Source: a virus (lineage: Duplodnaviria > Caudoviricetes). Taken from it: a stretch of DNA of 64,000 bases. The translations under genes and the position numbers were made by a program. Shown here in pieces: positions 10,279 through 50,983 of this stretch; within the stretch, counting starts at the first letter, position 1, and the number at the start of each line of letters is the position of its first letter. Under the pieces are notes generated by a model, which saw only the letters and a list, made by a program, of their open reading frames with translations, made no database searches and was not told the DNA's origin. Location of the stretch: IMG/VR virus record IMGVR_UViG_3300025732_000016. One strand, 5' to 3'.

Positions 10279-11097
10279 CTATCGTGCGATCGTGTTGAAA
10301 GTGTTGGTGTACTTCTGCCAGGACTTGTCGTTGGCAATCGACCAGAAACCGCGCTCGATGAAAGCAGTGCGGGTCGTGGTCCACTCTGGGTTGGTGGGGG
10401 TGCGCTCGAGCTCGTCCTCGATCTCGTGGAAGGCGATGAGGAAGAGATTGCGCTCGTACTGTTCACGGCGGCCGGGCTCACTGAGAAACTCATTGAGGCG
10501 AGACTCGTCGTTGATGAGTTTCTCGGCGGTCTTGCCCCCGACCCCCTTGAAGCCGGGAATGTTGTCCGAGCCATCGCCGACGAGGGACTTCCACCTCACG
10601 TAGTCACATGCGAAGGGCTGGACCCAGACTTCCTTGCCGGGGTTCCAGAGTCGAATTCGTTCGTCACCGTGTGTGAGGAGCTGGATGAAGTCAGTGTCGG
10701 TGGAGACGATGACGCAGGACTCATCCTTGTGGACGTTGCGGACGAGGTGAGCGATGGTGTCGTCACACTCCCGCTGGGGGTGGCGGACAATTTCGACCGG
10801 CATCGTGGTGAGGATGCTGACGATGTCACCGTGCTGGCGCCAGAAGTCGTCGCCTGCCGAGGAGCGGTTCGCCTTGTACTCGCCGAAGGCATCGTGGCGG
10901 CGCTGGGGCCTGCCCTCCTTGACGATGTAGACCCGCGAGGGTGAGAACTTCTCCACCGTCTTCCGCAGCATGAGGAAGAAAGTGTAGGTGATCGCGTGGT
11001 CGCCCTTGCTAAAGCCGGCGCGTGCGCGGTGGACCATGTTGTTGAAGTCAATGACGAGGACAGGGCTTTGGACTTCCATGTGATTCCTTCCTTCCAT
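10279..11097 (-). CDS. 5'-3' exonuclease / flap endonuclease (T4 RNase H-like)
   Basis: LVIDFNN, YKANR, ECDDTIA, STDTDFIQL, GDGSDNIPGFKGVGGKTA. Confidence 0.9.
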   Translation of the reverse strand: MEGRNHMEVQSPVLVIDFNNMVHRARAGFSKGDHAITYTFFLMLRKTVEKFSPSRVYIVKEGRPQRRHDAFGEYKANRSSAGDDFWRQHGDIVSILTTMPVEIVRHPQRECDDTIAHLVRNVHKDESCVIVSTDTDFIQLLTHGDERIRLWNPGKEVWVQPFACDYVRWKSLVGDGSDNIPGFKGVGGKTAEKLINDESRLNEFLSEPGRREQYERNLFLIAFHEIEDELERTPTNPEWTTTRTAFIERGFWSIANDKSWQKYTNTFNTIAR

Positions 11098-16958: not shown

Positions 16959-17419
16959 GCAGTGGGAGTCCTTGCACCTACAGCAAAATTAGTATTTGCT
17001 TCTTCCTCTTGTTTAGCTTCTGCGCTGATGCTGTATTCCTTGTCGAGAATTTCCAAGAGACTGTCAGACGTCTCCTCATCATAAGAGTTCTTCACATAGT
17101 TCTCTGCCATCTGCAGGACGGTTCCCTTGATGTCTAGCAGGTACTCTGCATTCTCTATCAGTCGAGCAACCTCCGAAGCGAAGGTCTCAAGGTTGATTTC
17201 AGGCTTGCCATCCGCAGCCTCCTCATCGGCCTCGAAGAGGAATCTCATCGACTTCCTACGGATCGACTCTTCAACACTCGTTGCATCGAGTGGGTCTCTC
17301 GCGGCGGCGCTACCGATCGAGGCTCGCTCGGCCTTCGTGAAGAAGGCGAGGACCTGCGCATCGAGGGACTTTTCAGGTCCGACCTCGGGAGCCTGTGCTT
17401 CTCTAAGAATCTTTCTCAT
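16955..17419 (-). CDS. Hypothetical protein with leader motif (154 aa)
   Basis: MRKILREAQ; SMRFLFEA. Confidence 0.7.
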   Translation of the reverse strand: MRKILREAQAPEVGPEKSLDAQVLAFFTKAERASIGSAAARDPLDATSVEESIRRKSMRFLFEADEEAADGKPEINLETFASEVARLIENAEYLLDIKGTVLQMAENYVKNSYDEETSDSLLEILDKEYSISAEAKQEEEANTNFAVGARTPTA

Positions 17420-18120
17420 GTCATCACCTTTGCGACTCTTTCAGTCTTATCGAATCGCTCCTCGATCTTGTCCCAGTTGAGCTCCTTCATCATCGCGAAG
17501 ATGTAGGACTTGCGGTCCTTCAGGTAGTCACGATAGTAGGTGTGCTCCCAGCAGTCAACGACGATCACTGGCATGCAGCCGAAGGGCACGTTCCCGGAGT
17601 GGAGGTCAACGACGACGTTAATGTAGCGCTTGAGGAAAGTGTTGTAGCAGGTGACGACCCACCCGTTCCTCGCGGCGAGACCGCAGGCGATGAAGTCCTT
17701 CTGCCACTTGTTGAAGTCTCCGAAATCCCGGGCGAGGCGCATATAGGAGATCGAATCCACAGTAACCTTTGAAGAGAGTGAACCGATGTTATCGAAGAAC
17801 ATTCCATGAAGGAATGAGGCATTGATGTTGTGTGCTTCGTCAACCTTCAGGCTGCGGAATGTAGAATTGTTTGGGTTCGAGCTTTCTCTGTCAGCAGTAT
17901 CTAATTGGGCAGAGACCTCGTTGAGAGCCTTGATGTACCCATCCATCAGCTCCTGGTGAGCCTTCTTGCTCTTCTCGGAGAGAGACTCAGTCTTCACGTC
18001 AAACTTCTTAGTTTGGACGACGTAGGCCTCGTCTACCCTCTTTTGTGGGCGACCCGGGGCTGAGACCTCTGCCAGCGCCTCACTGACAACGTTCTCAAGG
18101 AACTTCTCGCTGATCTTCAC
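17416..18120 (-). CDS. sod: Fe/Mn superoxide dismutase-family protein with N-terminal leader
   Basis: AH(QELMDGY), LHGMFFDN, GWVV, DCWEHTYYRDY signature (D-x-W-E-H-x-Y). Confidence 0.85.
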   Translation of the reverse strand: MKISEKFLENVVSEALAEVSAPGRPQKRVDEAYVVQTKKFDVKTESLSEKSKKAHQELMDGYIKALNEVSAQLDTADRESSNPNNSTFRSLKVDEAHNINASFLHGMFFDNIGSLSSKVTVDSISYMRLARDFGDFNKWQKDFIACGLAARNGWVVTCYNTFLKRYINVVVDLHSGNVPFGCMPVIVVDCWEHTYYRDYLKDRKSYIFAMMKELNWDKIEERFDKTERVAKVMT

Positions 18121-20863: not shown

Positions 20864-21343
20864 CTATCTATATCGACGGACTGTTAGGCCGGATTCTATG
20901 AGCAACTTTACCCCGCTTGTGTCCCTATATTCTTCAAGGTACACAACTTCCCTCACCCCACCGTTGATGATCGCCTTCGCGCACTGACGACAGGGAGAGA
21001 GGGTGAGGTACATCTTCTTCGCCTTCGGATGGTTGAAGTCGCACTTTATGAGGGCGTTGATCTCGGCGTGGATGAACCCAGATTGTCCGGGTTCGGTGGA
21101 CTCCACGGAATTTGGTCCGCCCCTGTGGTCACCGTTGTACCCCACCGCGAGGACCTGCGTGTTGTCCTCTGCGACTATGACGGCTCCGACTTGGAACCTC
21201 GGATCCAGTGACCTTCGTGAAAGTATCTTTGCAGTTTCCATCCACACCTGATCCCAGGTGGGTCTCATTGGGCTCTCTGTGTCTCTCTGAGAATCGATGA
21301 AGTCATTGATGTGGATTACCTTATCATCGTCAGAAGTAGTCAC
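20864..21343 (-). CDS. dCMP deaminase
   Basis: QVGAVIV, GYNG, HAEINAL, TLSPCRQCAKAII Zn motif. Confidence 0.92.
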   Translation of the reverse strand: MTTSDDDKVIHINDFIDSQRDTESPMRPTWDQVWMETAKILSRRSLDPRFQVGAVIVAEDNTQVLAVGYNGDHRGGPNSVESTEPGQSGFIHAEINALIKCDFNHPKAKKMYLTLSPCRQCAKAIINGGVREVVYLEEYRDTSGVKLLIESGLTVRRYR

Positions 21344-24740: not shown

Positions 24741-25709
24741 TCACCTATTGTAGAAGTGGTAAACTCTGTCAGAAGTAGAAAGAAGCTGGATCTTTGCGAG
24801 TCGATCATCCTTCAGCTTCCTCGCTCTGAAACTTCCAAGAACCAGCGTCCAGTCTCTCACGAGCTGTTCTTCTCTTCCCATCTCGTGGACTCCGTCCCTA
24901 AGCTCAGCCTCGCCCAAACCCCAGACCATCCCTTCATAGGCAAGAAGCTTCTCTGTTGGGAAGACTTCAGGCAGGGGCATCATGGGACAACCTTTCGCAT
25001 CCTCGTCATTAGCGATTGCGTCCAGCATCTCAAAGTCTCTTTCATAACAGTGAAGAGAGTTTGAAGTGTGGACGTACTCACCAAGACCGACGCCCAGCTC
25101 GTTTGCCATGATCTCCTGCATCATCGTGAAAGCAGGGACATCATAAGCGATCCCGAGGATGATGTCGCTGGATCGCATGTTGACGTGGAGATGAAGCTTG
25201 CCCTCACGGATGAAGAACTGGAGGGCGAGAGTGCATGGGACATCCTTCACTGCGTGGAGGGAGTCGTCCGGGGTCCTGATGTGGATGACCGCTCGACGGG
25301 AGTCAGGGTCCTTTCGGAGCTCCTCCTTCACGTAATCCCACTGCACAATTCCTCTGTTAGCAATCCTGTCATGCGGACGGAAGATTCGAGCACCGTAGGC
25401 GGAGTTCGCCGTCACACCGTCGTCTGTGATGTTCTTCCAGAAGGAAGCGTACCGGGAGATCCATGCAGTGGAATCGGATCCTGACAGGTACCAGAGCGTT
25501 TCCGCAACGAAGTACGCGGCCGAGAAGTTTCGAGCCGCAACCAGAGGGAGACGGTCGCGAGGATTCTTGATACGAAACTGGACACCGAGGCTCTCCTTTA
25601 TCTTCATCCCCCGAGGGGCCGACTCAAACTCATGTTCATCTCTGATGAGACGACAGAGGTCCACGTAGGCTCGAGTGAAACTTTCATACGACTTCATGCG
25701 CTCAACCAC
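24741..25709 (-). CDS. Thymidylate-synthase-fold dCMP hydroxymethylase-like enzyme
   Basis: DSRRAVI, PCTLALQFFIREGKLHLHVNMRSSDIILGIAYD: Asp at the ThyA Asn177 position, as in T4 gp42. Confidence 0.8.
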   Translation of the reverse strand: MVERMKSYESFTRAYVDLCRLIRDEHEFESAPRGMKIKESLGVQFRIKNPRDRLPLVAARNFSAAYFVAETLWYLSGSDSTAWISRYASFWKNITDDGVTANSAYGARIFRPHDRIANRGIVQWDYVKEELRKDPDSRRAVIHIRTPDDSLHAVKDVPCTLALQFFIREGKLHLHVNMRSSDIILGIAYDVPAFTMMQEIMANELGVGLGEYVHTSNSLHCYERDFEMLDAIANDEDAKGCPMMPLPEVFPTEKLLAYEGMVWGLGEAELRDGVHEMGREEQLVRDWTLVLGSFRARKLKDDRLAKIQLLSTSDRVYHFYNR

Positions 25710-39472: not shown

Positions 39473-39856
39473 TCAGTAACCGTTTTTTAGACGCTCTAAG
39501 ATCTTTTCGTGCTTTTTGCGGTAAGCATCGTGAAGCTCATCGGGACTGATTCCAATCAGCACCAGAGTCGTCAAGAAGTAATTGTAAGCGTCGACAATCT
39601 CCTCGAGGAACTCCTCCCTCTCAAAATGAGCCACCTCAGTCTGTCGATGGGGCTTCGAGTTCTTCAGGTGCTGAAGAGCTTCGAACATCTCCTCGACTCC
39701 TCGAAGGACGGAATCGCGAAGGATGACCTGGCTCTGCTTCTTGGAAACGTCTATCGGCCAGTCAGGATAATAGCCCGGCATCTTCTCTGAGATTGCCTGC
39801 ATGAACTCTTCACGCAGGCGAAAGATCTCTGTCAGCCTGTCATCAGTTGACGTCAT
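39473..39856 (-). CDS. All-alpha NTP pyrophosphatase (dCTPase/dimeric dUTPase/MazG-like)
   Basis: VEEMFEAL...KPHR...FLEEIVDAYNYF...AYRKKH motif; ATG 39856. Confidence 0.75.
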   Translation of the reverse strand: MTSTDDRLTEIFRLREEFMQAISEKMPGYYPDWPIDVSKKQSQVILRDSVLRGVEEMFEALQHLKNSKPHRQTEVAHFEREEFLEEIVDAYNYFLTTLVLIGISPDELHDAYRKKHEKILERLKNGY

Positions 39857-40067
39857 TCTGGAGATCCAGAGCCTTCTGCGCAAGGTCATCGAGATTCTTC
39901 TGGAAGTTCTCGTTGAACTCGGAAGTGGGGGTGAGCTCCTCTCCCTGGGCTTCAAGACGCAGAGTGCGAAGATTGTCAACGACGTCCGTGCCCGTCAGGA
40001 TGGCGAGCTGGACGAGCTTTGCGATGGAAGAAATGGTCTCATCAGAGAGTCTGTACTGCATATTCAC
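39843..40067 (-). CDS. Small hypothetical protein (74 aa)
   Basis: LSDETISSIAKLVQLAILTGTDVVDNLR; coupled to neighbours. Confidence 0.7.
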   Translation of the reverse strand: MNMQYRLSDETISSIAKLVQLAILTGTDVVDNLRTLRLEAQGEELTPTSEFNENFQKNLDDLAQKALDLQNDVN

Positions 40068-40815: not shown

Positions 40816-40843
40816 AGTGTAATGAGCCGAGGAGAGTTGTTTA
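40816..40843 (-). promoter_or_regulatory. Putative promoter TAAACA-N16-TACACT
   Basis: Variant of recurring class. Confidence 0.5.
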
Positions 40844-41632
40844 ACTCTGAACTCGCGGAACCCACCACGTTGTGCGACCGTCCTTGGTCTCCTGGCACAC
40901 CACAGTCTCGCCGTTGGGGTCCGTCTTTCGGCCATAGACAAGCATAGAGTGTTTCCCTTCCTCACCGTCGAACCCCTTGTAGGTGAGGATGGTGGAGCCA
41001 CCGTTGAGGTACGCCGTCTTGATGACATCCTTCACGGATTCACAGAGAATTGTGAGCTGCTCATCTGTCGTCTGGTTCACCTTTCGCCATGGGCTGAGTT
41101 TCGCCATCCAGAGAGAGTCCGCCTTCAGGTAGTTTCCGACTCCTGAGACGATTCCCTGACTCATGAGGACTTCAGCCAGGGTCGCTTCAGGATGCTTTCG
41201 AAGCCTCTCGATGAAAGTGGCAGGCTTCACTATCTCGTTGAGCATGTCGGGGCCGAGTGAATCAAGCTTCACCTTCAAGTCCTTGCGGCTGCAGAACTTT
41301 AGGGTGCCGAAGTTTCGCGGATCATTGAAGTACAGTTCACCCTCGGATGTCTCGAACTTCACCCTTGCGTGACGAGGGGCGTTTGACCATGCACCTGACA
41401 TCCCGAGAGTGTTGAAGATGACTGTTTCAGTGTCCTGGAAGGTCCAGTAGATGAACTTGCCCTTGCAACCCACACTCTCGATTGTGAGAGGAAACTGGAC
41501 GTTGGCGAGTCCCTCGATGGGCTTCTTCGTGTAGCGACCTGATAGTGGCGTAACTGAGAGAAGCCTGTCACCCTCACCGAGGAAGCTGTTGATGGAGCGG
41601 ACAAAGTTTGCGACTTCGGGACCCTCGGGCAC
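40841..41632 (-). CDS. Fpg/Nei-family DNA glycosylase (no canonical Cys4 zinc finger)
   Basis: N-terminal PEGPEV, GKFI, LGMSG, F.DPRNFG, LGPD, GVGNYL H2TH, GRTTWWVP.VQ. Confidence 0.92.
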   Translation of the reverse strand: MPEGPEVANFVRSINSFLGEGDRLLSVTPLSGRYTKKPIEGLANVQFPLTIESVGCKGKFIYWTFQDTETVIFNTLGMSGAWSNAPRHARVKFETSEGELYFNDPRNFGTLKFCSRKDLKVKLDSLGPDMLNEIVKPATFIERLRKHPEATLAEVLMSQGIVSGVGNYLKADSLWMAKLSPWRKVNQTTDEQLTILCESVKDVIKTAYLNGGSTILTYKGFDGEEGKHSMLVYGRKTDPNGETVVCQETKDGRTTWWVPRVQS

Positions 41633-41641
41633 AACGCCTCC

Positions 41642-41911
41642 TTAGAATCGATCACAGGTTTGCAGGCTTCCGTTGACTCGGAACTGGTACTTCGACTTTG
41701 CACTCTCTGCGGTGTAGATGACCCACACTGGGCCCGTTCCCTCCCACACCTCGGTGGTTCCGACAAAGCCCGTCCTGCGGAGGTCTCCCTGGTGGTGGGC
41801 AGAGAAATTTCCCACCGCTGAGATGTAGTGGGGCTCATCACCCCAGAATTGACAGGTACCGATGAGAGTGTCAGCGAAAGAAAAGTTGAGCAAGAGATAG
41901 AGCGGTAGCAC
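41642..41911 (-). CDS. Hypothetical protein, possible signal peptide
   Basis: GTG 41911 after purine-rich RBS; MLPLYLLLNFSFAD. Confidence 0.5.
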   Translation of the reverse strand: MLPLYLLLNFSFADTLIGTCQFWGDEPHYISAVGNFSAHHQGDLRRTGFVGTTEVWEGTGPVWVIYTAESAKSKYQFRVNGSLQTCDRF

Positions 41912-41924
41912 GTCTTCTCTTCCT

Positions 41925-42134
41925 CTAGCTCGAATGCCACTTTCGAGCGTTGAAAGATCCCATGAGAGCGGGTCGTTCATCGTGAGGTGTCCTGTTGACC
42001 TCAGCGAGCATATTCTCAATGTTGGCCAGCGCGGTGATCTCCCAATCACGAGGCGTCGACCCTGCCTCGCTGTCACAACGCTCACGTGCAAGCCGAAGAG
42101 CCGTATGAACTGCTGCAAGCTCGATATTGGTCAT
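41925..42134 (-). CDS. Small hypothetical protein
   Basis: AAGGAGG RBS. Confidence 0.65.
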   Translation of the reverse strand: MTNIELAAVHTALRLARERCDSEAGSTPRDWEITALANIENMLAEVNRTPHDERPALMGSFNARKWHSS

Positions 42135-42208: not shown

Positions 42209-42661
42209 TCAACAGGTGAAGTTGTGGTTGGCAGACGGATGTTCTGACTCGCCGTAGTGCTTCTTCAGGAAGTCGTGGTAGTCATTGAGAGCGTGGTCCT
42301 GCGGCTGGACGCTGCGCCAGTCACCGAGGACGAAGATTCGGTACGCGTCCGAGGCATACTTCCCAACTCCGTGAAGCTGGAGGACGTCATTCCACTTGCC
42401 CTCGTGATACTGGGCCGACATCTTCTTCAGAGTATTGACGCGCTTCTTCCACATGCCAAGAGTTCGGATGACATCCGTGAGCTCTGCGTCATCAGCTTCT
42501 GACAGAGACTTTGCATCAGGCCATCGCTGGAACATCCTTTCAACAACTGGTTCCATCTGCTTCCTCGTAGTGAGGTTGAGACAGAGGCAGCAGACAAGGA
42601 TCTTCCAGGGATCAGGCCAGTACTTCTCTTGGATTAGTCCGTACTTTGGGGGAGTCCACAA
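42209..42661 (-). CDS. MBD4-like HhH mismatch DNA glycosylase
   Basis: WTPP...IQE...DPWKILV...N.T, LHGVGKYASDAYRIF, W..V.P.DH.LN.YHD parallel to the MBD4 catalytic domain. Confidence 0.85.
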   Translation of the reverse strand: MWTPPKYGLIQEKYWPDPWKILVCCLCLNLTTRKQMEPVVERMFQRWPDAKSLSEADDAELTDVIRTLGMWKKRVNTLKKMSAQYHEGKWNDVLQLHGVGKYASDAYRIFVLGDWRSVQPQDHALNDYHDFLKKHYGESEHPSANHNFTC

Positions 42662-42680
42662 GCTTCACCTCCGTATCAAG

Positions 42681-42707
42681 ATAATACATCCTGACGGAGA
42701 CTTTACA
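42681..42707 (-). promoter_or_regulatory. Putative promoter TGTAAA-N15-TATTAT
   Basis: Recurring class. Confidence 0.55.
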
Positions 42708-42727
42708 AACTTGTGGACTCCCTTTGA

Positions 42728-43579: not shown

Positions 43580-44248
43580 TCAGTAAGGTGGGTGGAAAGT
43601 TTCCTCGACTCTGTCAGCGAGACCGAACGCCTCGATCGTGTGCTTGAACGGATTTGTTGGGATGCCGGCAACGAGCTGGAGCATCTGCTCTGCGATCTCT
43701 CTCACTTCCCTCTGAGCGTCACTCTTCATCCGCAGGTTGAGAAAGTGATTGAAGGAACGCCAGTTGAACATGACGTCCATCGTCACCTGGTTGCCATAGG
43801 GCAGATAGAATCGGGCAGACTCCTTGGCTCGCTTTCGATCCATCCCGTCCTTCACAAGACGCTCAAGGGTATCATGGTAGCGCATTATCGCGTCTTCCAT
43901 GAATGCGATATACTTCGCTTTCTCGACAGTGGGCCAGTCATCCGGCACCACGTACTTGTCGTCCTTGAGCTCCTTGTAACGAGCAGACTCTGCATTGATT
44001 GAGACGCCTATGCGATGCTTGAGGAGATGAATGTGAGTCGCAGTGTCCACTGTCACGAGGAAGTGAATCGAGCTCTTCTCAAACGGCGTCTCGTGCCCGT
44101 TCTCCGCGAGCATCTTCAAAAGCTCTGGAACTCTCTTTCTCTTCTCTGGGCTGATGTCCCTGCTCGTGCTCGTCCAAGCCGAAAGTGCGTGAGCCTCGTC
44201 TCCACCGTACCAACCAATGAGCTCTACCTTGTTCTCTTGAAAGGGCAT
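43580..44248 (-). CDS. thyX: Flavin-dependent thymidylate synthase
   Basis: GHETPFE, KHRIGVSINAESARY, KESARFYLP, NWRSF..FL.LR, AQREVR. Confidence 0.9.
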   Translation of the reverse strand: MPFQENKVELIGWYGGDEAHALSAWTSTSRDISPEKRKRVPELLKMLAENGHETPFEKSSIHFLVTVDTATHIHLLKHRIGVSINAESARYKELKDDKYVVPDDWPTVEKAKYIAFMEDAIMRYHDTLERLVKDGMDRKRAKESARFYLPYGNQVTMDVMFNWRSFNHFLNLRMKSDAQREVREIAEQMLQLVAGIPTNPFKHTIEAFGLADRVEETFHPPY

Positions 44249-44453
44249 TCCTAATTCTCTCTCTAATGTGTCTGTCCCAAATGATCTCAAACACCCACTG
44301 AAGGAGGGTGAGTGTTGAGCCCGTCAGAAAGACTATTCCTGCGGACTCTCCCACGCTGTGGGTGAAGATGTAGGTTATCGTGAATCCGTAGAGCATGGAA
44401 AAGAATCTCCATGCTACAACTTTTGTCAGCAGCTCTATCTTTGCTGGCTTCAC
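44079..44453 (-). CDS. DUF2061-like small membrane protein (3' end overlaps thyX)
   Basis: KVVAWRFFS..., two hydrophobic helices, FEIIWD; GTGA coupling to GS stop. Confidence 0.55.
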   Translation of the reverse strand: MKPAKIELLTKVVAWRFFSMLYGFTITYIFTHSVGESAGIVFLTGSTLTLLQWVFEIIWDRHIRERIRNALSREQGRAHWLVRWRRGSRTFGLDEHEQGHQPREEKESSRAFEDARGERARDAV

Positions 44454-45484
44454 TCCACCCCGCAGACCGCCTCAAGAAGCAGACGGGTCACGACGTATGG
44501 ATCAACGTTAGCGCACGGTCGACGATCCTCGAGGTATCCACAGCCCTCTTGCGCCACATGGAGAGGTATCCGAATAGAGGCTCCTCTGTCACTCACACCG
44601 TATCGGAACTCTCTGTAGGAGCATGTCTCGTGGTGACCCGTGAGACGAAGCTCAATACCGTGGCCGTAGTGAGCAATGTGATGCTCGTGACGAACGCGAA
44701 GCAGCTCGCAAGCTTCCTTGATAGCATAGATTCCCTCAGGTTCACGCATACGCTTTGTTGAGAAATTGGTGTGGGCTCCTGCACCGTTAAGCTCTGCGAC
44801 TGGCTTGGGATCAAGCTTCACAGTGATCCCGTGCTTCTCGCCGATTCGGTAGAGAAGCCAACGTGCAAAGATGAGGTGGTCAGAGACAGTGAGAGCGTCA
44901 GCAGTTCCGATCTGGAACTCCCACTGGCCAGGCATCACCTCGGCGTTGATACCGCAAAGGGCGATGCGGGAGTCGAGACATGCTGCCATGTGCTCCTCGA
45001 CAAGCTCCCGACCGAAGACCTCATCGGATCCAACACCGCAGTAGAAAGGACCCTGCTGGGGAGGGTAGCCACCCGTGGGCCAACCGAGGGGCCGACCGTC
45101 CTTGAACATCGTGTACTCCTGCTCGATACCGAACAGGGGCTCGTGGTCAAGGGTCTTCTCAACAACTTCACGAAGCTTGCTGCGAGTGTTTGACTCGTGG
45201 GGCTTCATGTCCGCGGTGAAGACCTCGCAGATGACGAGAATGTGGACTCTCTCGTGATTCTTCTCTCGAGTGGGATCAAGAGTAAATCTTGCGGGAATCA
45301 GAAGACAGTCACTTCTGTCACCAGAAGCCTGTCCGGTGGAAGAGCCATCAAAGGTCCACCGAGGAATGTCCTCTATTCCGAAAGGCTTGTTTGCATCGCT
45401 GTATTGCAGGATTTTTGTCTTGCTTCGAAGTTTGTGGGTCGGATGGCTTCCGTCCTGCCAGATGTACTCGGCTACGATATTCAT
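44450..45484 (-). CDS. glnII: Glutamine synthetase, type II-like
   Basis: AEYIW.DG, LRSKTK, W.FDGSST.QA, QGPFYCGVG, INAEVMPGQWEFQIG, NGAGAHTNFST, RLTGHHET, RGASIRIP, GYLEDRRP. Confidence 0.95.
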   Translation of the reverse strand: MNIVAEYIWQDGSHPTHKLRSKTKILQYSDANKPFGIEDIPRWTFDGSSTGQASGDRSDCLLIPARFTLDPTREKNHERVHILVICEVFTADMKPHESNTRSKLREVVEKTLDHEPLFGIEQEYTMFKDGRPLGWPTGGYPPQQGPFYCGVGSDEVFGRELVEEHMAACLDSRIALCGINAEVMPGQWEFQIGTADALTVSDHLIFARWLLYRIGEKHGITVKLDPKPVAELNGAGAHTNFSTKRMREPEGIYAIKEACELLRVRHEHHIAHYGHGIELRLTGHHETCSYREFRYGVSDRGASIRIPLHVAQEGCGYLEDRRPCANVDPYVVTRLLLEAVCGVE

Positions 45485-45486
45485 GC

Positions 45487-46089
45487 TTAGTCCAAGATGT
45501 AATCGAGGTTGATCTTACAAGTGAGAGTCGGGATTCGAAGCTCGTTGGCGAGGTTGTGACCCTTCGCCTCATTTGCATCGAGGTACCAATCTGCGTGACC
45601 CCTCTCGTGGACCATCTTCAGGAAATAGTCCGATGGCTTGCCGCAGTTGCGAGCCATCATCTCGTAGACCTTCTTGTTGAGGCGCTCGACTTCCTTCGCG
45701 TCGGCCTTGATCTCCTCGACCTTGCCCCATGCGCCGCTGGAGACGTCGTGGATCATGAGGGTCGCGTCCGGGTCCATGTAACGCTTCCCCTCAGCTCCGA
45801 AGCTGAAGAGGATCGCTCCGCAGCTCATTGCCTTGCCCTCGATGATGGTGGCCACCGGAACTCGGGAGGCCTTGATCGCCGAGATCATTGCCATGAGGGA
45901 GTAGACCTGACCGCCGTAGGAGTCGATGACGATGGGGATCACCGACTGGCCCGTGTTCTGTGCCATGCTCATCTGGGAGGTAAACTCCTTCGCCGAATCC
46001 TCGTCGAACTTGTTCACTCGGATGATGATCGGATCGACCTTGAGCTCGACTGCCTTGATGTGATTAGAAACGTCTGCGATGAAGTTCAC
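45487..46089 (-). CDS. clpP: ClpP-family protease
   Basis: IDSYGG, GKAMSCG (Ser), TLMIHD (His), DWYLDANEA; GTG 46089. Confidence 0.88.
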   Translation of the reverse strand: MNFIADVSNHIKAVELKVDPIIIRVNKFDEDSAKEFTSQMSMAQNTGQSVIPIVIDSYGGQVYSLMAMISAIKASRVPVATIIEGKAMSCGAILFSFGAEGKRYMDPDATLMIHDVSSGAWGKVEEIKADAKEVERLNKKVYEMMARNCGKPSDYFLKMVHERGHADWYLDANEAKGHNLANELRIPTLTCKINLDYILD

Positions 46090-46141
46090 TGCGTACCCCG
46101 GTTGTGTTAGGTTGCGAATAGCCTGTTCGATTTCGTCTTCT

Positions 46142-48631
46142 TCACTTGCACTTGGAGAAGCCACACGCCTTGCAAGAGAGGCACCCCTCTTGATAGACGA
46201 GCTCTGAGTTACCACACTCAGGGCACCCCTTTTCGCTTGACTTTGTACCATCCTTGATGTACCCCTTGAGAACTCTTGCGATTACTCTTGCGTATGAGAA
46301 CATGTCACTGTTCTTGTCCTTCTGTAGTTGTTCCACGATGTACTGGAGTGGGACATCGTGACGGAGAGCCAGTGATATAGTCCTCGTGAACGCTCCTTGA
46401 GTCGGATTGTCGAAGAGGTTGACAACGTCCTTGAAGACGAGATTCTCATCGTCACCGACCGGGACAGAGAGGTTGTATGTGGCAACACCATCACGCTTAC
46501 CATTTTTAATCAAGGAACCTGATTTGTATCGCTTCGGGATCTCGATATTCTCAGGAATGCCGCAGAAGACTTCGTAGGGCTTGCCATCGTTGAGACCTAT
46601 GAGGACCATCCACGACTCAGTGTTCTCACCGTTCCTGATGTTGGCCCGGTGAATGTCGCAGTGAAGAGACTTCGGCCTCCTGGGAGTGAGTCTCCCATCC
46701 TCTGACTTCTTCTCCTTCTTGGGCTCATCATTCTGCACCAGAACGCCTGTCCTACATCCGTCACGGTAGACTGTGAAACCCTTACAACCGAACTTCCACG
46801 CCTTCATATAGACGTCATTCACAATCTCACGTGTAGCAGAGTTCGGGAGGTTGCAAGTTTTAGAGATGGAGTGATCGATCCACTGCTGAGCCGCAGCCTG
46901 GATGTCGACCGACTTTTCCCAATCGATGTCGTTCGCAGTTGCTCCCCAGTATGGGCTCTCCTTTGGGTCGGTCTTTCCCGTACGATCCATCCACTTCTTG
47001 AACCAGTGGTGGTAGACCGTGTACTCCTGCCACTTGTCACCCATCGGATCCACAAAGTCGACCCTTGACGTGAGATCTCCCTGCGTGATCTTACGACGAC
47101 GCTTGTATGAGAGCAGGAATGCAGGTTCGATACCCGATGTCGTCCTGGTAAGACAGGAGACTGAGCCAACCGGCGCCGTAGTCGTTAGGGCAATGTTGCG
47201 GCGGCCAGTGGTCTTCCACATATTATAGCTGTCACCATTGCAGGCTGACATCACCCTGCACAGGTAGAGATGGTCCTTCTCCTTCTCATAGTCGAAGGCT
47301 GGGAAAGCGCCGCGCTCCTTCGCCATGATGAGTGAAGAACGGTGAGCTCCGATTGCGAGAGCTCTGTAGATCTCACGAGTAGCGTCGATCGAACAACCGT
47401 CACCGTAGCGAATGTTCATTGCTGCAAGAGCGTCACCGAGTCCAGTGACGCCGAGACCCGTCCGTCGACCATTCTTACCAGCCGCGCGGATCTTGTGCCA
47501 GAGATCCCATTCAATCCGCTTCACGTGATCTGGCTGCGGGTCCTTCTCGATCTTCTCGAGGATTCGATCCACGCACTCAATCTCAAGATCGACAAGGTCG
47601 TCCATGAGACGCTGGGCCTTCATCACCACAGTGTTGAATCGATTGAAGTCAAACGTAGGACTGTCGCCGAAAGGATCGGTTACAAAGGACGTGAGATTAA
47701 TGACCATCAAACGACACGAGTCATAAGGACTGAGAGGAATCTCACCGCATGGATTGGTAGAGATCGTCTTGTAACCGACGTCACGATAGCAGTCAACGAT
47801 TCCTTGGTTGACGATGGTGTCCCAGAAGAGAGCGCCAGGCTCCGCGGAAGCCCAGGCTGCATCAACGAACTTATCCCAGATCTGCTTCGCGTCGACCATC
47901 TTGACGATCTCTGCGTCCTCGGGATGAGCCTCAACCGGCCAGCGAAGGCAGAAACCGGTGTTGCCCTCGACCGCCTGCATGAACTCGTCCGTGAAACGGA
48001 TAGAGATATTCGCGCCCGTCACCTTCTTCAGGTCACGCTTGATGTCAATGAATGTCTCGATCTCCGGGTGGCGACAGTCAATCGTGAGCATCAGAGCGCC
48101 ACGTCGGCCGCCCTGCGCCACCTCGCGTGTAGAGTTAGAGAATCTCTCCATGAAGACACCGATGCCATCAGTCGTCCGAGCAGCATTCGTGGTGGGCTGA
48201 CCCTTTGGGCGAATGGTGGAGACATCGAATCCGACTCCGCCGCGGCGCTTCATGATCTGGACCTGCTCCTGGTCAGTGAAGAGAATGCCACCGTAAGAGT
48301 CCTGTGGCTGCTCAATAACGAAGCAGTTTGACAGGCTCTGCAGTTGGTAGTAATTCCCGATGCCCGACATCGGAGAACCCTGTGGGATGACGTCCTTGAA
48401 GTCCTTCAGGAGCTCGTAGATCTCGTCTTCGCTCATCGGGTTCGGATACTTTGCCTCAATACGGGCAAACTCCTTCGCGAGTCGACGATGCATCTGGTCC
48501 GGATTGGTCTCGATTAGGTCGTCGTCTGCGTCGCGAAGCGCATACTTCATGAAGACGTCTGGAGCGAGCTCATCACCCTCGAAGTAAGCGGATGTCTCCC
48601 TAAGTGCAGTTTGCCTCGTTGTCTCGTTCAT
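46142..48631 (-). CDS. nrdJ: Class II (B12-dependent) ribonucleotide reductase
   Basis: PQGSPMSG, SNCFV, GGVG, GANISI, TNPCGEIPL, TTTAPVGSVS, TTSGIEP, KGFTVYRDGCR; C-terminal Zn ribbon; no NrdB in window. Confidence 0.9.
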   Translation of the reverse strand: MNETTRQTALRETSAYFEGDELAPDVFMKYALRDADDDLIETNPDQMHRRLAKEFARIEAKYPNPMSEDEIYELLKDFKDVIPQGSPMSGIGNYYQLQSLSNCFVIEQPQDSYGGILFTDQEQVQIMKRRGGVGFDVSTIRPKGQPTTNAARTTDGIGVFMERFSNSTREVAQGGRRGALMLTIDCRHPEIETFIDIKRDLKKVTGANISIRFTDEFMQAVEGNTGFCLRWPVEAHPEDAEIVKMVDAKQIWDKFVDAAWASAEPGALFWDTIVNQGIVDCYRDVGYKTISTNPCGEIPLSPYDSCRLMVINLTSFVTDPFGDSPTFDFNRFNTVVMKAQRLMDDLVDLEIECVDRILEKIEKDPQPDHVKRIEWDLWHKIRAAGKNGRRTGLGVTGLGDALAAMNIRYGDGCSIDATREIYRALAIGAHRSSLIMAKERGAFPAFDYEKEKDHLYLCRVMSACNGDSYNMWKTTGRRNIALTTTAPVGSVSCLTRTTSGIEPAFLLSYKRRRKITQGDLTSRVDFVDPMGDKWQEYTVYHHWFKKWMDRTGKTDPKESPYWGATANDIDWEKSVDIQAAAQQWIDHSISKTCNLPNSATREIVNDVYMKAWKFGCKGFTVYRDGCRTGVLVQNDEPKKEKKSEDGRLTPRRPKSLHCDIHRANIRNGENTESWMVLIGLNDGKPYEVFCGIPENIEIPKRYKSGSLIKNGKRDGVATYNLSVPVGDDENLVFKDVVNLFDNPTQGAFTRTISLALRHDVPLQYIVEQLQKDKNSDMFSYARVIARVLKGYIKDGTKSSEKGCPECGNSELVYQEGCLSCKACGFSKCK

Positions 48632-50016
48632 TACTTCGCTCCCATCACCTGGGTCCACTTTTCCTTGATCAGCTTCTTCCGGTCGTTGTCATCTTGGTTC
48701 AACGCTTCCTGAAGAGTAAGTTCGCTCTCTTCCAAGATCTTGATTGTGGATCGCGCTGTGTCAATGTGAACTGGGAAGAGAATTCCGTCCCGACCCGCTC
48801 GATTCTTAGCCACGAAGAGTCGGCCAGCTCCGGTCGCCTTCTCGGTCGGCTTTCGAGAGAGTGAGAGAACCACATCGGCGACCATCGCCTTTCCGTAAGA
48901 TTCTGACATATTCTCGAGACCGACAACATCTGCGTTCGACGAATCCCTGTTCGCCTGAGAGGCAGTCCAGATCGGAATGTTCCTCTCCATCGCAAGGTTG
49001 CGAAGCTCCTCGTAGATGAGCTTCAGCTCAAGGCGGAGGGCATCATACTCACGGCTCGAACGCATGATGTCTGCATAGTCGATGAGCAGCATGCTGGGAG
49101 TGAAGCCACGGAGCGAGAGCTTCTCAAGGTGATTGCGGATCGTGTTCACCGTCGCTGCGCCTGTCGGGTATTCCTTGATGATGAGCTTTCCGAGATCCAT
49201 CTCCTTGTACTTGTCAAGGACCTCCTGCTTCGAGTCCTGGATTTCGTTGGAAGCAATACCAGTCAAGTGAGAGTCGTACCTGATTCCGACCGCGGTCTCT
49301 GTGAGCTCAAAGGTGTAGTGGACGACGTTCTTGCCGAGCTTGAGAGCCTGCGCGCCGAGTCCAACCAGCATGTGGCTCTTGCCGACGCCAGTGTTCGCCA
49401 CAATGACACCGAGCTCACCTCGACCGAGTCCACCGTTGAGAACGGTCTTCTGGTCGAGCTGCTCGAGACCAGTCGGGCAAGCGAGACGATTGATCTTCAC
49501 AAAGCGGGCCTCTGCATCCTCGAAGAAGTCATGACCGACAGAAGTGGGTAGACCGACGGAAACCGCCTTGCGCATGAGATCGACAACGGCATCGTACTTG
49601 TCACCTGAGATGAGCTCAACGGACTTCTCAAGCGCCTCACGAAGTGCCTGCTTTCTGCAGAAGTCGAGTGACTTGTCCTTCACATAGGCAATGTCGCCCA
49701 TGTCGGGAGAAGTCCGCATGCGACCGAGGTACTCAACGATCTGTTCCTTGAGGACAGCGTTGTTCTGCTCCTTTAGCTCGTCCTTGATGATCGAGATGAG
49801 GAGAGACATCGTCGGGAAAGCCTTGTACTTCGTGTGGTACTTGAAGTACTTGTCGCTGAGAAACGCGAGGTACTTGAGATCGAAGTAGACAGGCTTCATC
49901 ACCTCGGTCATCTGTGCTGCCCACGTGTGGTCAGTCAAGAGACCTTGGAAGATTTTCTCTTGGAAAGCCTTCCCGTATTGCTTGAACAGGGCTTCACCCG
50001 GATTGAACTCAGACAT
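48631..50016 (-). CDS. dnaB: Replicative helicase, DnaB/T4 gp41 family
   Basis: ANTGVGKS, FELTE, LIDYADIM, WTASQANR, KNRAG. Confidence 0.92.
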   Translation of the reverse strand: MSEFNPGEALFKQYGKAFQEKIFQGLLTDHTWAAQMTEVMKPVYFDLKYLAFLSDKYFKYHTKYKAFPTMSLLISIIKDELKEQNNAVLKEQIVEYLGRMRTSPDMGDIAYVKDKSLDFCRKQALREALEKSVELISGDKYDAVVDLMRKAVSVGLPTSVGHDFFEDAEARFVKINRLACPTGLEQLDQKTVLNGGLGRGELGVIVANTGVGKSHMLVGLGAQALKLGKNVVHYTFELTETAVGIRYDSHLTGIASNEIQDSKQEVLDKYKEMDLGKLIIKEYPTGAATVNTIRNHLEKLSLRGFTPSMLLIDYADIMRSSREYDALRLELKLIYEELRNLAMERNIPIWTASQANRDSSNADVVGLENMSESYGKAMVADVVLSLSRKPTEKATGAGRLFVAKNRAGRDGILFPVHIDTARSTIKILEESELTLQEALNQDDNDRKKLIKEKWTQVMGAK

Positions 50017-50983
50017 TCTGCTTTGCCGCCTTGAGGTTTACTGTTGCGTTGAGATAGAGTCGATCGACGTCGAATGTCTTGATCCCAGCCTTGATTAAGG
50101 AACGTATGAGCTCAATCTTGTTCCCTTCGGGAAGGGAGTTTTCGACTGCACCGTTCACTTTCGAGACTTGGTTCCAGCTGAGGTTCGAGACATCCAACTT
50201 CATCAATTTCCAGTTCATTCTACCCAGGTCTGCGCTGTTTTTCACCTGTGCGTAAACCTTGGGAGACTTGTCGGGCATGGAGCTCGCCTTCTCGATTATC
50301 TGTTCGAGCTTTACCTCTTCGTCCCCAGCGAGCTCTGGGAAACGCTTGACCATCGTCCTCAAACCGAGACCTTTCACTCCCGGCAGTGCGTCTGATGTGT
50401 CGCCACAGAAACAGCGGGCGACGAGAAGGTTGTGCGGCCATATCCCGGTCTTCTCCTTGACAGACTCTCTCGTCACAATCGATCTCAGTGTAGGAGACCA
50501 TATCGTGATCCGATCGTCCACCAGCTGTAAGTAATCATGATCTGAGGAGACGATCAGCACCCGTGATCGTGAGTATGAGTATTTTGCGAGGTAGCCGATG
50601 ACGTCATCCGCCTCGCAGTCAGAGACGTAGACCTGCCTGACCGGGAGGTTCCTCATGACGTGGATGAGCAGTTTCACCTGCCAGTTCCTGTTCTCGAGAG
50701 TGTCTGGAATGTCACCCTCGTGGAACCTGTTGAGCTTTACGGGACGACGCTTTGCCTTGTAGTCAGGATAGATGTCCCGCCTCCGGGTCGAACCTCCACC
50801 CTCCCAGACGACGACGCACTCCTTCGGCCTGTGAGCAGCTATGAGAGAATTCAGTGACTGTAGGAACCCCACAACTCCGCCCACGTGCTGTCCATCCGCC
50901 ATCAGCGGGTTAGCGCAGAAATTGCGAATGAACAGGTTGTAGGCGTCGATGAGTAGGACTGGGCGTTCGTCCTGCATTTTCAT
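50009..50983 (-). CDS. 5'-3' exonuclease / flap endonuclease (second copy)
   Basis: LLIDAYN, YKAKR, EADDVIGY, SSDHDYLQL, GDTSDALPGVKGLG. Confidence 0.9.
   Translation of the reverse strand: MKMQDERPVLLIDAYNLFIRNFCANPLMADGQHVGGVVGFLQSLNSLIAAHRPKECVVVWEGGGSTRRRDIYPDYKAKRRPVKLNRFHEGDIPDTLENRNWQVKLLIHVMRNLPVRQVYVSDCEADDVIGYLAKYSYSRSRVLIVSSDHDYLQLVDDRITIWSPTLRSIVTRESVKEKTGIWPHNLLVARCFCGDTSDALPGVKGLGLRTMVKRFPELAGDEEVKLEQIIEKASSMPDKSPKVYAQVKNSADLGRMNWKLMKLDVSNLSWNQVSKVNGAVENSLPEGNKIELIRSLIKAGIKTFDVDRLYLNATVNLKAAKQNV

What the first reader, a model, noticed from the sequence alone, without database searches (positions are those of the whole stretch)
42209..42661. Phage MBD4-like glycosylase: repair partner for a modified-cytosine genome
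Seen: striking by-eye similarity to the eukaryotic MBD4 catalytic domain (WTPP, DPWK, LHGVGKY..D.YRIF, W..V.P.DH.LN.YHD). Known: MBD4 excises T, U and 5hmU opposite G, the deamination products of 5mC/C/5hmC. Inference: independent support for 5-substituted C in this DNA and a dedicated maintenance arm; also relevant to MBD4 origins.
Basis: partly seen in the sequence, partly recalled or inferred. Interest (0 to 1): 0.7.

Follow-up and report, generated by a model that had tools for sequence, protein, structure and literature searches.

The report
Phage stand-alone MBD4-type mismatch glycosylase
A giant freshwater phage encodes an intact copy of the catalytic domain of the eukaryotic DNA-repair enzyme MBD4, usually next to a mimivirus-type Nei repair gene, and it most likely removes the T-like bases left when the phage's modified cytosines decay.

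Summary
ORF 42209-42661 (- strand, 150 aa) is an MBD4-family HhH-GPD glycosylase. It matches the human and mouse MBD4 catalytic domain at E 1e-33. Its model (pLDDT 93) superposes on MBD4 at TM 0.86-0.94. The catalytic Asp and the pocket Gln and Tyr are kept, and dN/dS is 0.04-0.11.

The phage carries a cytosine-type ThyA homologue (Asp at the Asn177 position, closest to a CMP hydroxymethylase). In the 5mC phage Xp12 and its relatives, the same glycosylase lies in one same-strand gene run with the dCMP-modifying genes. All 13 ThyA-family ORFs found on contigs that encode this glycosylase are Asp-type.

The steadiest neighbour, however, is a zincless, mimivirus-Nei1-type Fpg/Nei. It lies within 10 kb in 15 of 21 sequence clusters and directly downstream in 8. 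Most contigs are fragments, so universal linkage to cytosine modification is not shown.

At least 348 IMG/VR viral contigs encode a relative. No match was found in 400 bacterial genomes sampled. The window protein groups with viral forms, not inside the eukaryote clade.

I found no paper that recognises this family in phages. This scan has already noted the same MBD4-Nei pair in at least 8 other genomes. It is a new variant of a known kind. No activity has been measured.

The parts
42209..42661 (-). Stand-alone MBD4-family HhH-GPD DNA glycosylase (150 aa). It has no MBD domain and no Fe-S cluster motif.
   Evidence: PDB phmmer E 1e-33 to MBD4. Pfam HhH-GPD. Model pLDDT 93.4, TM 0.86-0.94 to MBD4. 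Q11, N29, T31, L68, G69, G100, Y102 and D122 match human Q449, N467, T469, L506, G507, G538, Y540 and D560. dN/dS 0.04-0.11.
42662..42727 (-). Intergenic leader of the glycosylase gene: a Shine-Dalgarno GGAGGTGA, and a sigma-70-like site (TTGTAA, 16 nt spacer, TATTAT) at 42708-42681.
   Evidence: Sequence read. Consensus scan, which is a pattern match only and not evidence of function.
40841..41632 (-). Zincless Fpg/Nei glycosylase/AP lyase of the mimivirus Nei1 type. It is the likely downstream partner that cuts the abasic site.
   Evidence: Pfam Fapy_DNA_glyco, H2TH and C-terminal domains. PDB best hits 3a45/3a42/3vk7/4nrw at E 7.5e-34 over the full length. N-terminal PEGPE is invariant. The last 40 residues hold one Cys, so there is no zinc finger. 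A homologue lies within 10 kb of the glycosylase gene in 15 of 21 clusters and directly downstream in 8.
41925..42134 (-). Small ORF (69 aa) between the two glycosylase genes; function unknown.
   Evidence: No Pfam or PHROG match. Called as a gene on the JGI contig.
41642..41911 (-). Small ORF (89 aa) between the two glycosylase genes; function unknown.
   Evidence: Called as a gene on the JGI contig. No PHROG match.
39473..39979 (-). NTP pyrophosphohydrolase. I infer, without a test, that it could act like a dCTPase.
   Evidence: PHROG nucleotide pyrophosphohydrolase 5e-14. Weak Pfam dUTPase_2 match. A homologue lies within 10 kb of the glycosylase gene in 11 of 21 clusters.
24741..25709 (-). 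ThyA-family enzyme of the cytosine type (dCMP hydroxymethylase-like). It is the presumed source of the C5-modified cytosine.
   Evidence: Pfam Thymidylat_synt 1.6e-34. Best PDB hit is the CMP 5-hydroxymethylase MilA at 1e-42, against 1e-24 for true thymidylate synthases; Asp aligns with the TS Asn of PFNIAS.
43580..44290 (-). ThyX flavin-dependent thymidylate synthase. It supplies dTMP, so the ThyA paralogue is free for another role.
   Evidence: Pfam Thy1 1.6e-36. Found beside the glycosylase gene in 19 of 84 loci.
50009..50983 (-). 5'-3' exonuclease / flap endonuclease, a possible later step of the repair.
   Evidence: Pfam 5_3_exonuc_N 6.8e-34. A homologue lies within 10 kb of the glycosylase gene in 12 of 21 clusters.

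Best explanation
The ORF encodes a monofunctional, Fe-S-free HhH-GPD glycosylase of the MBD4 family. Like MBD4, it most likely flips out and removes a uracil-type pyrimidine paired with guanine: T, U, 5-hydroxymethyl-U and perhaps bulkier 5-substituted U. These are the deamination products of 5mC, C, 5hmC and their derivatives. This phage very probably replaces cytosine with a C5-modified form, so such lesions would arise in its own DNA. Host uracil glycosylases are not expected to remove T or hmU opposite G (general knowledge, not tested here). The abasic site would then be cut by the nearby zincless Nei-type AP lyase. The gap would be trimmed and refilled by phage or host enzymes (flap endonuclease, polymerase, ligase).

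Shown: family membership, intact active-site residues, purifying selection, the conserved Nei neighbour, and co-occurrence with cytosine-type ThyA genes.

Inferred: substrate range, the hand-off to Nei, and the link to modified cytosine as the selective reason.
For: Family and fold.

Residues: PMC3479182 names the residues that matter in human MBD4. These are catalytic D560, essential Q449, Y540, the main-chain contacts of V448, and L506, which contacts the opposite G. All are present in the window protein and are invariant or nearly so in 330 family members. Tyr occupies the HhH position where bifunctional enzymes carry the lyase Lys (alignment; PMC8307549). The enzyme should therefore need a separate AP lyase.

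The gene is under purifying selection, with dN/dS 0.04-0.11.

Partner: an MvNei1-type Nei lies 577 nt downstream (580 nt by tblastn hit ends). A homologue lies within 10 kb in 49 of 84 loci, which is 15 of 21 clusters at 62% identity. It is directly downstream, within 60 nt on the same strand, in 8 of 21 clusters, although both proteins have diverged to 40-50% identity.

Link to modified cytosine:
- The window's ThyA homologue is closest to CMP hydroxymethylase and has Asp for Asn177.
- In Xp12 (5mC shown by LC-MS, PMC7653180), the Janthinobacterium phage Donnerlittchen and AXL1 (restriction-resistant DNA, PMC9206674), the gene order is glycosylase, NTP-PPase or HAD hydrolase, ThyA-like, dCMP deaminase, DHFR.
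- All 13 ThyA-family ORFs on carrier contigs are Asp-type and none is Asn-type.
- 8 of 21 clusters have such a contig.
- Among 50,697 phage records, only 16 hit. 13 of these are Xp12-like, 1 is the cyanophage S-TIM54, which also has an Asp-type ThyA, and 2 are weak partial hits in an Aeropyrum virus.
Against: No enzyme activity or DNA chemistry has been measured for this phage or any phage homologue.

The residue that fills the DNA gap in human MBD4 (R468) is Leu here and in most viral forms. G471 is Arg and K562 is Ala, so DNA handling and specificity may differ.

The gene lies about 17 kb from the hydroxymethylase cassette in this window. 14 of 18 large carrier fragments showed no ThyA-family gene. 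They are only 25-82% complete, so this neither supports nor refutes the link.

Most carrier loci share a replication module: DnaE, DnaB, RecA, gp32 and RNR. Much of the neighbourhood conservation may therefore be shared descent.

Well-known hmC phages of the T4 type have no homologue, so the enzyme is not a required part of cytosine replacement.
Confidence: 0.6

Rival explanations
1. It is a general base-excision repair kit of large aquatic phages. The MBD4-type enzyme and Nei repair ordinary deamination (U:G, T:G) and oxidation damage in a long-lived, light-exposed virion genome, whatever the cytosine chemistry. The link to modified cytosine is incidental or lineage-bound.
For: The strongest neighbour is Nei, not the modification genes. 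The gene sits inside a replication and repair module with FEN, RecA, gp32 and RNR. The phage also encodes a superoxide dismutase. No ThyA-family gene was found on 14 of 18 large carrier fragments.
Against: In the Xp12 group there is no Nei nearby, and the gene lies in the same gene run as the dCMP methylation genes. Every ThyA-family gene found on carrier contigs is cytosine-type. The gene is rare among the 50,697 sequenced phages, and the carriers are concentrated in a known 5mC clade.
Confidence: 0.27
2. It is a counter-defence or pool-error repair enzyme. It removes U, hmU or T produced in phage DNA by host DNA deaminases, or by misincorporation of deaminated modified nucleotides made by the phage's own dCMP deaminase pathway.
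For: The phage encodes a dCMP deaminase (20864-21343) and a hydroxymethylase, so hmdUMP could form. The conserved pocket fits uracil-type bases.
Against: There is no direct evidence. MBD4-type enzymes act on G-paired bases, whereas misincorporated hmU would mostly pair with A. No deaminase-type defence of the unknown host is documented here.
Confidence: 0.08
3. It is an offensive enzyme that attacks unmodified host DNA, for example by excising normal bases, to help degrade the host genome.
For: Phages with fully modified cytosine often encode enzymes that target cytosine-containing DNA (general knowledge of T4). PMC3479182 shows that cytosine can sit in the MBD4 pocket.
Against: In that structure cytosine acts as an inhibitor, not a substrate. 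The residues that read O2, N3 and O4 of uracil-type bases (Q449 and Y540 equivalents) are invariant. The pairing with a repair-type Nei also argues for repair.
Confidence: 0.03
4. It is a recent capture from a eukaryote, or eukaryotic contamination of the assembly.
For: The best long hits are plant and algal MBD4-like proteins at 47-50% identity.
Against: The gene is flanked by phage genes on contigs of 169-208 kb. 348 viral contigs carry relatives. In the tree the window protein groups with short and viral forms, outside the clade that holds 36 of 39 long (eukaryote-type) sequences.
Confidence: 0.02

Closest known systems
Glycosylase domain of mammalian MBD4 (PDB 4dk9, 3iho, 4e9e-h, 4evv, 4ew0, 6vjw, 1ngn)
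   Same: The same Fe-S-free HhH-GPD fold (TM 0.86-0.94) with about 37-44% identity over the whole domain. It has the same catalytic Asp (D560), pocket Gln449 and Tyr540, the LN-x-T wedge loop and the L506-G507 loop. It has Tyr instead of the lyase Lys, so it is predicted to be monofunctional.
   Different: It has no methyl-CpG-binding domain or linker. Leu replaces the gap-filling Arg468, Arg replaces Gly471 and Ala replaces Lys562, and these changes hold across the viral forms. It is encoded by a bacteriophage, usually beside a Nei gene.
Plant MBD4-like proteins (Arabidopsis MBD4L; PMC6728418)
   Same: They also lack the MBD domain. Plant and algal proteins are the closest long relatives, at 47-50% identity. 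Some plant forms also have Leu at the Arg468 position.
   Different: Plant proteins carry long N-terminal extensions and are nuclear. The phage form is the bare 150-aa domain.
Xp12-group phage proteins annotated 'hypothetical', 'ENDO3c domain' or 'endonuclease III' (Xp12 QNN97216.1, AXL1 gp65, Donnerlittchen USN14433.1)
   Same: They belong to the same family, at 34-37% identity and 113-121 bits to the family profile. They keep the Gln, Tyr and Asp residues and have Leu at the 468 position. They are stand-alone phage proteins in genomes with modified cytosine.
   Different: There the gene lies in one same-strand gene run with the ThyA-like dCMP-modifying enzyme and has no Nei nearby. The AXL1 paper did not recognise an MBD4 relationship and doubted the active site.
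MIG / Mth TDG (PDB 1kea), MutY and endonuclease III
   Same: The same HhH-GPD superfamily. MIG is also a T:G mismatch glycosylase, and I recall (not checked here) that its gene is linked to a C5-methyltransferase.
   Different: The similarity is only marginal (E 0.003-0.01, TM about 0.6). Those enzymes carry a 4Fe-4S cluster loop that is absent here.
Mimivirus Nei1 (L315; PDB 3a42, 3a45, 3a46, 3vk7, 3vk8) and human NEIL1, for the neighbouring gene
   Same: The neighbouring gene matches MvNei1 over its full length at E 7.5e-34. It has the N-terminal Pro-Glu catalytic pair, an H2TH motif and a zincless finger.
   Different: It is phage-encoded and gene-linked to an MBD4-type enzyme. Its substrates are untested.

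Membership tests
MBD4-family glycosylase domain | HhH-GPD fold without an Fe-S cluster, closer to MBD4 than to any other HhH-GPD branch | tested here: met
   PDB E 1e-33 to MBD4 against 0.003 for MutY and MIG. Foldseek TM 0.86-0.94 to MBD4 against 0.65 or less for others. Cys occurs only at residues 24, 25, 27 and 150, so there is no C-terminal four-Cys loop (sequence).
MBD4-family glycosylase domain | Catalytic Asp of the GPD loop (human D560) | tested here: met
   D122 lies in QPQDH and aligns with D560. This position is Asp in 328 of 329 aligned relatives, the exception being an alignment gap. Its role is described in PMC3479182.
MBD4-family glycosylase domain | Base-pocket residues Gln449 and Tyr540 that read O2 and N3 of uracil-type bases | tested here: met
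   Q11 and Y102 align with them. All 83 viral loci have Gln and Tyr at these positions.
MBD4-family glycosylase domain | Arg468, which fills the gap left by the flipped base | tested here: not met
   The window protein has Leu30. Viral and short forms have Leu in 158 of 186 sequences, with Arg three residues later. The position also varies among long eukaryote-type forms (R 57, K 34, Q 14, I 11, V 10, C 10), so it does not define the family.
MBD4-family glycosylase domain | No lyase Lys in the HhH motif (monofunctional enzyme) | tested here: met
   In GVGKY the Tyr occupies the position of the endonuclease III lyase Lys, as in MBD4 (alignment; the principle is in PMC8307549). The positional equivalence to Nth K120 comes from my own knowledge.
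MBD4-family glycosylase domain | Excision of T, U and 5hmU opposite G | not testable with these tools
   This needs an enzyme assay.
Full-length animal MBD4 | N-terminal methyl-CpG-binding domain | tested here: not met
   The protein is 150 aa and aligns with the catalytic domain from residue 2. Pfam finds only HhH-GPD and a sub-threshold DUF4298 hit.
MIG / MutY / endonuclease III branch | C-terminal 4Fe-4S cluster loop and closer sequence similarity | tested here: not met
   There is no Cys cluster, and E is only 0.003-0.35.
Fpg/Nei, NEIL1 / MvNei1 zincless type (neighbouring gene 40841-41632) | N-terminal Pro2-Glu3, an H2TH motif, and a zincless finger in place of a Cys4 zinc finger | tested here: met
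   PEGPE is invariant in 21 aligned partners. Pfam finds the three Fpg domains. The best PDB hits are the MvNei1 entries. The C-terminal 40 residues hold one Cys.

The most novel reading that the evidence does not exclude
The MBD4 glycosylase family is at home in large bacteriophages that replace cytosine with C5-modified forms. There it works with a zincless Nei as a two-gene repair cassette for decayed modified cytosine. The eukaryotic enzymes that guard methylated CpG (MBD4 and plant MBD4L, and perhaps NEIL1-type Nei as well) would then derive from this viral pool, rather than the reverse.
Probability: 0.2. Interest if true: 0.8.

Novelty: new variant of a known kind. Interest (0 to 1): 0.6.

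Why it matters
MBD4 is known as a eukaryotic guardian of methylated DNA. This work shows a large, conserved and nearly unannotated viral branch of the family. PHROGs has no family for it, and the BFVD viral structure library has no phage match.

The branch includes a gene of the classic all-5mC phage Xp12 that has been annotated only as 'hypothetical'. That gives a culturable model for a simple question: do phages with fully modified cytosine need their own repair of deaminated modified bases?

The enzymes are small stand-alone domains with a different DNA-wedge residue. They could serve as tools for detecting T:G or hmU:G mismatches. The conserved pairing with a NEIL1-like Nei resembles the glycosylase hand-off described for mammalian demethylation (my recollection; no paper was read for this).

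The distribution, with eukaryotes plus phages and almost no cellular prokaryotes among those sampled, also makes the origin of MBD4 a testable question.

Tried and rejected
- Complex prediction of Nei with the glycosylase gave no verdict (score 0.15, mark 0.32). It counts neither for nor against binding.
- PHROGs gave no family for the glycosylase.
- Megablast of 20 kb of the window against sequenced phages gave no match.
- The first genome-contig scan with the 20-sequence alignment failed because it had no conserved stretch. A 7-sequence alignment worked.
- Whole-record searches for ThyA-family genes on 18 large IMG/VR carrier contigs found 4. The contigs are 25-82% complete, so the negatives say little.
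- I tried to root the family tree with a cellular prokaryotic sister group. The only 'genome' hits were MAG contigs that look viral or belong to the S-TIM54-like viral subgroup. The tree was rooted only on the Xp12 branch and has a weak backbone.
- Literature searches for a described phage MBD4-like enzyme found none. The MetaGPA papers do not mention HhH-GPD.
- The S-TIM54 paper says nothing about DNA modification.
- Eukaryotic contamination or recent capture was considered and rejected.

Full report
**The object.** The finding's coordinates coincide with an ORF on the minus strand, 42209..42661, 150 aa, with a TTG start. A GGAGGTGA ribosome-binding site lies 5 nt upstream. Relatives start with the same M-W-T/I-P-P, so the start is sound.

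**Family.**
- phmmer against all PDB sequences gives E 1.2e-33 to 1.7e-32 for 15 distinct human and mouse MBD4 glycosylase-domain sequences, over residues 2-136. The next glycosylases, MutY and the archaeal T:G glycosylase MIG, score only E 0.003.
- Pfam reports HhH-GPD above its cut-off.
- An AlphaFold model built on a 20-sequence alignment has pLDDT 93.4. Its 16 best Foldseek hits in PDB are all MBD4 domains (TM 0.86-0.94, rmsd 1.0-2.2 A), followed by MIG at TM 0.65/0.47.
- The protein has no four-Cys Fe-S loop and no MBD domain.

**Active site.** PMC3479182 names the functional residues of human MBD4: catalytic D560, essential Q449, Y540, main-chain contacts from V448, the intercalating R468, and L506 packing against the opposite guanine.
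- The window protein has Q11, Y102, D122, L68-G69 and the LN-x-T loop at the matching positions.
- In an alignment of 330 family members, the Gln, Asn467, Thr469, Leu506/Gly507, Gly538, Tyr540 and Asp560 positions are invariant or nearly so in every group.
- The viral and short forms differ from eukaryotic forms in a consistent way. They have Leu where human MBD4 has Arg468, Arg where it has Gly471, and Ala where it has Lys562.
- Position 468 also varies among eukaryote-type sequences, so it does not define the family. The phage enzymes do form a recognisable variant.
- Tyr sits where bifunctional HhH enzymes have the lyase Lys, so the enzyme is predicted to be monofunctional (PMC8307549).
- dN/dS against three close relatives is 0.04-0.11, so the gene is maintained by selection.

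**Genomic setting.** The window is phage DNA, and nearly every sizeable ORF that matched a family lies on the minus strand. I found:
- DnaE-type polymerase, DnaB, RecA, a gp32-like protein, ribonucleotide reductase, ClpP, glutamine synthetase, ThyX and a VanY-type lysin;
- the glycosylase, two small unknown ORFs, an Fpg/Nei gene, an FkbM methyltransferase and an NTP pyrophosphohydrolase.

The same gene order occurs on a 169-kb JGI metagenome contig. About 17 kb from the glycosylase gene lies a ThyA-family gene (24741-25709). Its best PDB match is the CMP 5-hydroxymethylase MilA (1e-42, against 1e-24 for true thymidylate synthases), and it has Asp aligned with the Asn of the TS motif PFNIAS, which is the cytosine-type signature. 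Next to it are a glycosyltransferase-like gene, a sugar epimerase/dehydratase, a cupin, a thymidine kinase and a dCMP deaminase. With ThyX present for dTMP synthesis, a C5-modified cytosine is a reasonable reading. An earlier follow-up of this scan reached the same view (e1-5410859). I re-tested only the ThyA part.

**Distribution.**
- Among 50,697 sequenced phage records, tblastn finds the protein in 16. Thirteen are Xp12-like siphoviruses (Xp12, FMYAK-P1, MET13-T1, Ep029, YB23, DoCa6, Stenotrophomonas AXL1, Janthinobacterium Donnerlittchen). One is the cyanophage S-TIM54. Two are weak partial hits in an Aeropyrum virus.
- Xp12 is the classic phage in which all cytosine is 5mC (LC-MS in PMC7653180). 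AXL1 DNA resists enzymes with G/C in their sites (PMC9206674).
- In Xp12 and Donnerlittchen the gene order is glycosylase, HAD or NTP-PPase hydrolase, ThyA-like, dCMP deaminase, DHFR. The AXL1 paper lists the same domains in consecutive genes gp61-gp65.
- The AXL1 paper describes this protein (gp65) only as an ENDO3c-domain protein with an uncertain active site. My alignment shows the MBD4 Gln, Tyr and Asp in the Xp12 and Donnerlittchen homologues.
- In metagenomes the family is large. There are 108 close stand-alone relatives of 98-189 aa. 2,425 representatives score E 0.001 or better, and the best are plant and algal MBD4-like proteins at 47-50% identity. At least 348 IMG/VR viral contigs encode a relative.
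- A pattern scan of 185,579 species genomes gave only 10 loci, all in MAGs. Several of these are plainly phage contigs or belong to the S-TIM54-like subgroup.
- A profile search of 400 further genomes drawn from one bacterial phylum found no match at E 1e-20 or better. This means 'not found in those searched', not 'absent'.
- PHROGs has no family for the protein. BFVD has one structural match, and that is in a baculovirus.

**Neighbours across lineages.** I compared all window proteins with the 84 loci held at that point (80 IMG/VR, one JGI contig, three sequenced phages). The most frequent neighbour of the glycosylase gene is the Fpg/Nei gene.
- It lies within 10 kb in 49 of 84 loci. At 62% identity clustering that is 15 of 21 clusters. 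It is directly downstream on the same strand, with gaps of 2-15 nt, in 8 of 21 clusters.
- The window's Nei matches the entries 3a42, 3a45, 3vk7 and 4nrw over its full length at E 7.5e-34. I recall these as mimivirus Nei1; the search output titles them only 'formamidopyrimidine-DNA glycosylase'.
- All partners keep the N-terminal PEGPE and a Cys-poor, zincless C-terminus.
- I found this pairing before opening the scan's notes. The notes show that the same MBD4-Nei pair has already been recorded in at least 8 other genomes.
- Other frequent neighbours, by cluster, are the flap endonuclease (12), RNR (11), NTP-PPase (11), ClpP, DnaB and RecA (10 each), and DnaE (9).
- Most carriers therefore belong to a broad group of related large phages, and part of this conservation is shared descent.

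**Link to cytosine modification.**
- Thirteen ThyA-family ORFs were found on carrier contigs, in the flanks or by whole-record Pfam search. All have Asp at the Asn177 position and none has Asn.
- A scan with the window's ThyA homologue showed that five more carrier contigs of the window's own lineage hold both genes.
- In all, 8 of 21 clusters have at least one such contig.
- Against this, 14 of 18 large IMG/VR carrier contigs gave no PF00303 match. CheckV rates them 25-82% complete, so the negatives are uninformative.
- T4-type hmC phages have no homologue.
- My reading: the association is real but not shown to be universal. The glycosylase alone is weak evidence for modified DNA.

**Phylogeny.** I built a careful IQ-TREE run on 76 representatives and 145 columns.
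- It puts 36 of 39 long (eukaryote-type) sequences on one side of a branch (support 94/97).
- It puts the window protein with short metagenomic and viral forms.
- Rooted on the Xp12 branch, the eukaryote clade is nested among viral lineages. The backbone is weak, the outgroup is itself viral and long-branched, and 'long' is only a proxy for eukaryotic origin.
- Recent capture from a eukaryote is excluded. The direction of the ancient transfer is open.

**Mechanism proposed.**
1. The enzyme scans phage DNA, flips out a uracil-type base opposite G and hydrolyses the glycosidic bond using D122.
2. The Nei-type lyase cuts the abasic site.
3. End-cleaning, the flap endonuclease, a polymerase and a ligase finish the repair.

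The family, the residues, the selection and the gene linkage are shown. The substrate range, the Nei hand-off and the selective reason are inferred. I put the repair-of-modified-cytosine reading at about 0.6, a general repair kit at about 0.27, and the other rivals at 0.08 or less each.

**Verdict.** This is a new variant of a known enzyme family: a viral, stand-alone form with an altered wedge loop, usually gene-paired with a zincless Nei. It is apparently not described in the literature I could search. Interest is moderate to high because Xp12 and AXL1 make it directly testable.

Noticed in passing
window 40841-41632 (-): The Fpg/Nei gene near the glycosylase gene is a full-length match (E 7.5e-34) to PDB 3a42, 3a45, 3vk7 and 4nrw, which I recall as mimivirus Nei1. 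It has a zincless C-terminus. PHROGs lists its family (phrog_21295) as 'unknown function'.
   Followed up: yes
L010 / L087 (Cyanophage S-TIM54, OP053362.1, 145421-146233): The ThyA homologue of S-TIM54 has Asp at the Asn177 position, like the Xp12 enzyme, and the phage also carries an MBD4-type gene. This suggests an unreported cytosine modification. The phage's paper (PMC10087341) does not mention one.
   Followed up: partly
L090, L091, L092 (GTDB MAG contigs NYZO01000017.1, NHDW01000006.1, JBBAUR010000009.1): L090 is labelled archaeon and carries the glycosylase gene plus a homologue of this window's NTP-PPase. L092 is labelled Bdellovibrionota and carries the glycosylase gene plus several other genes of this window. 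Both are probably phage contigs binned into MAGs. L091 is labelled Methylococcaceae and matched only the glycosylase gene, so its origin is undecided.
   Followed up: partly
BFVD entry U5KBB0 (Clostera anastomosis granulovirus A): A baculovirus HhH-GPD protein is the only clear MBD4-like structure in the viral structure library (TM 0.86, 34% identity). It is probably a separate capture from an insect host.
   Followed up: no
window 41925-42134 and 41642-41911 (-): Two small ORFs (69 and 89 aa) with no family match separate the glycosylase and Nei genes here. In many relatives the two genes abut.
   Followed up: partly
window 44450-45484, 45487-46251, 17416-18120 (-): The phage encodes a short glutamine synthetase, a ClpP protease and an Fe/Mn superoxide dismutase close to the repair genes.
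   Followed up: no
window 10279-11097 (-): A 272-aa ORF that I did not annotate has homologues within 10 kb of the glycosylase gene in 10 of 21 clusters, and at 42% identity on the Bdellovibrionota-labelled contig L092.
   Followed up: no
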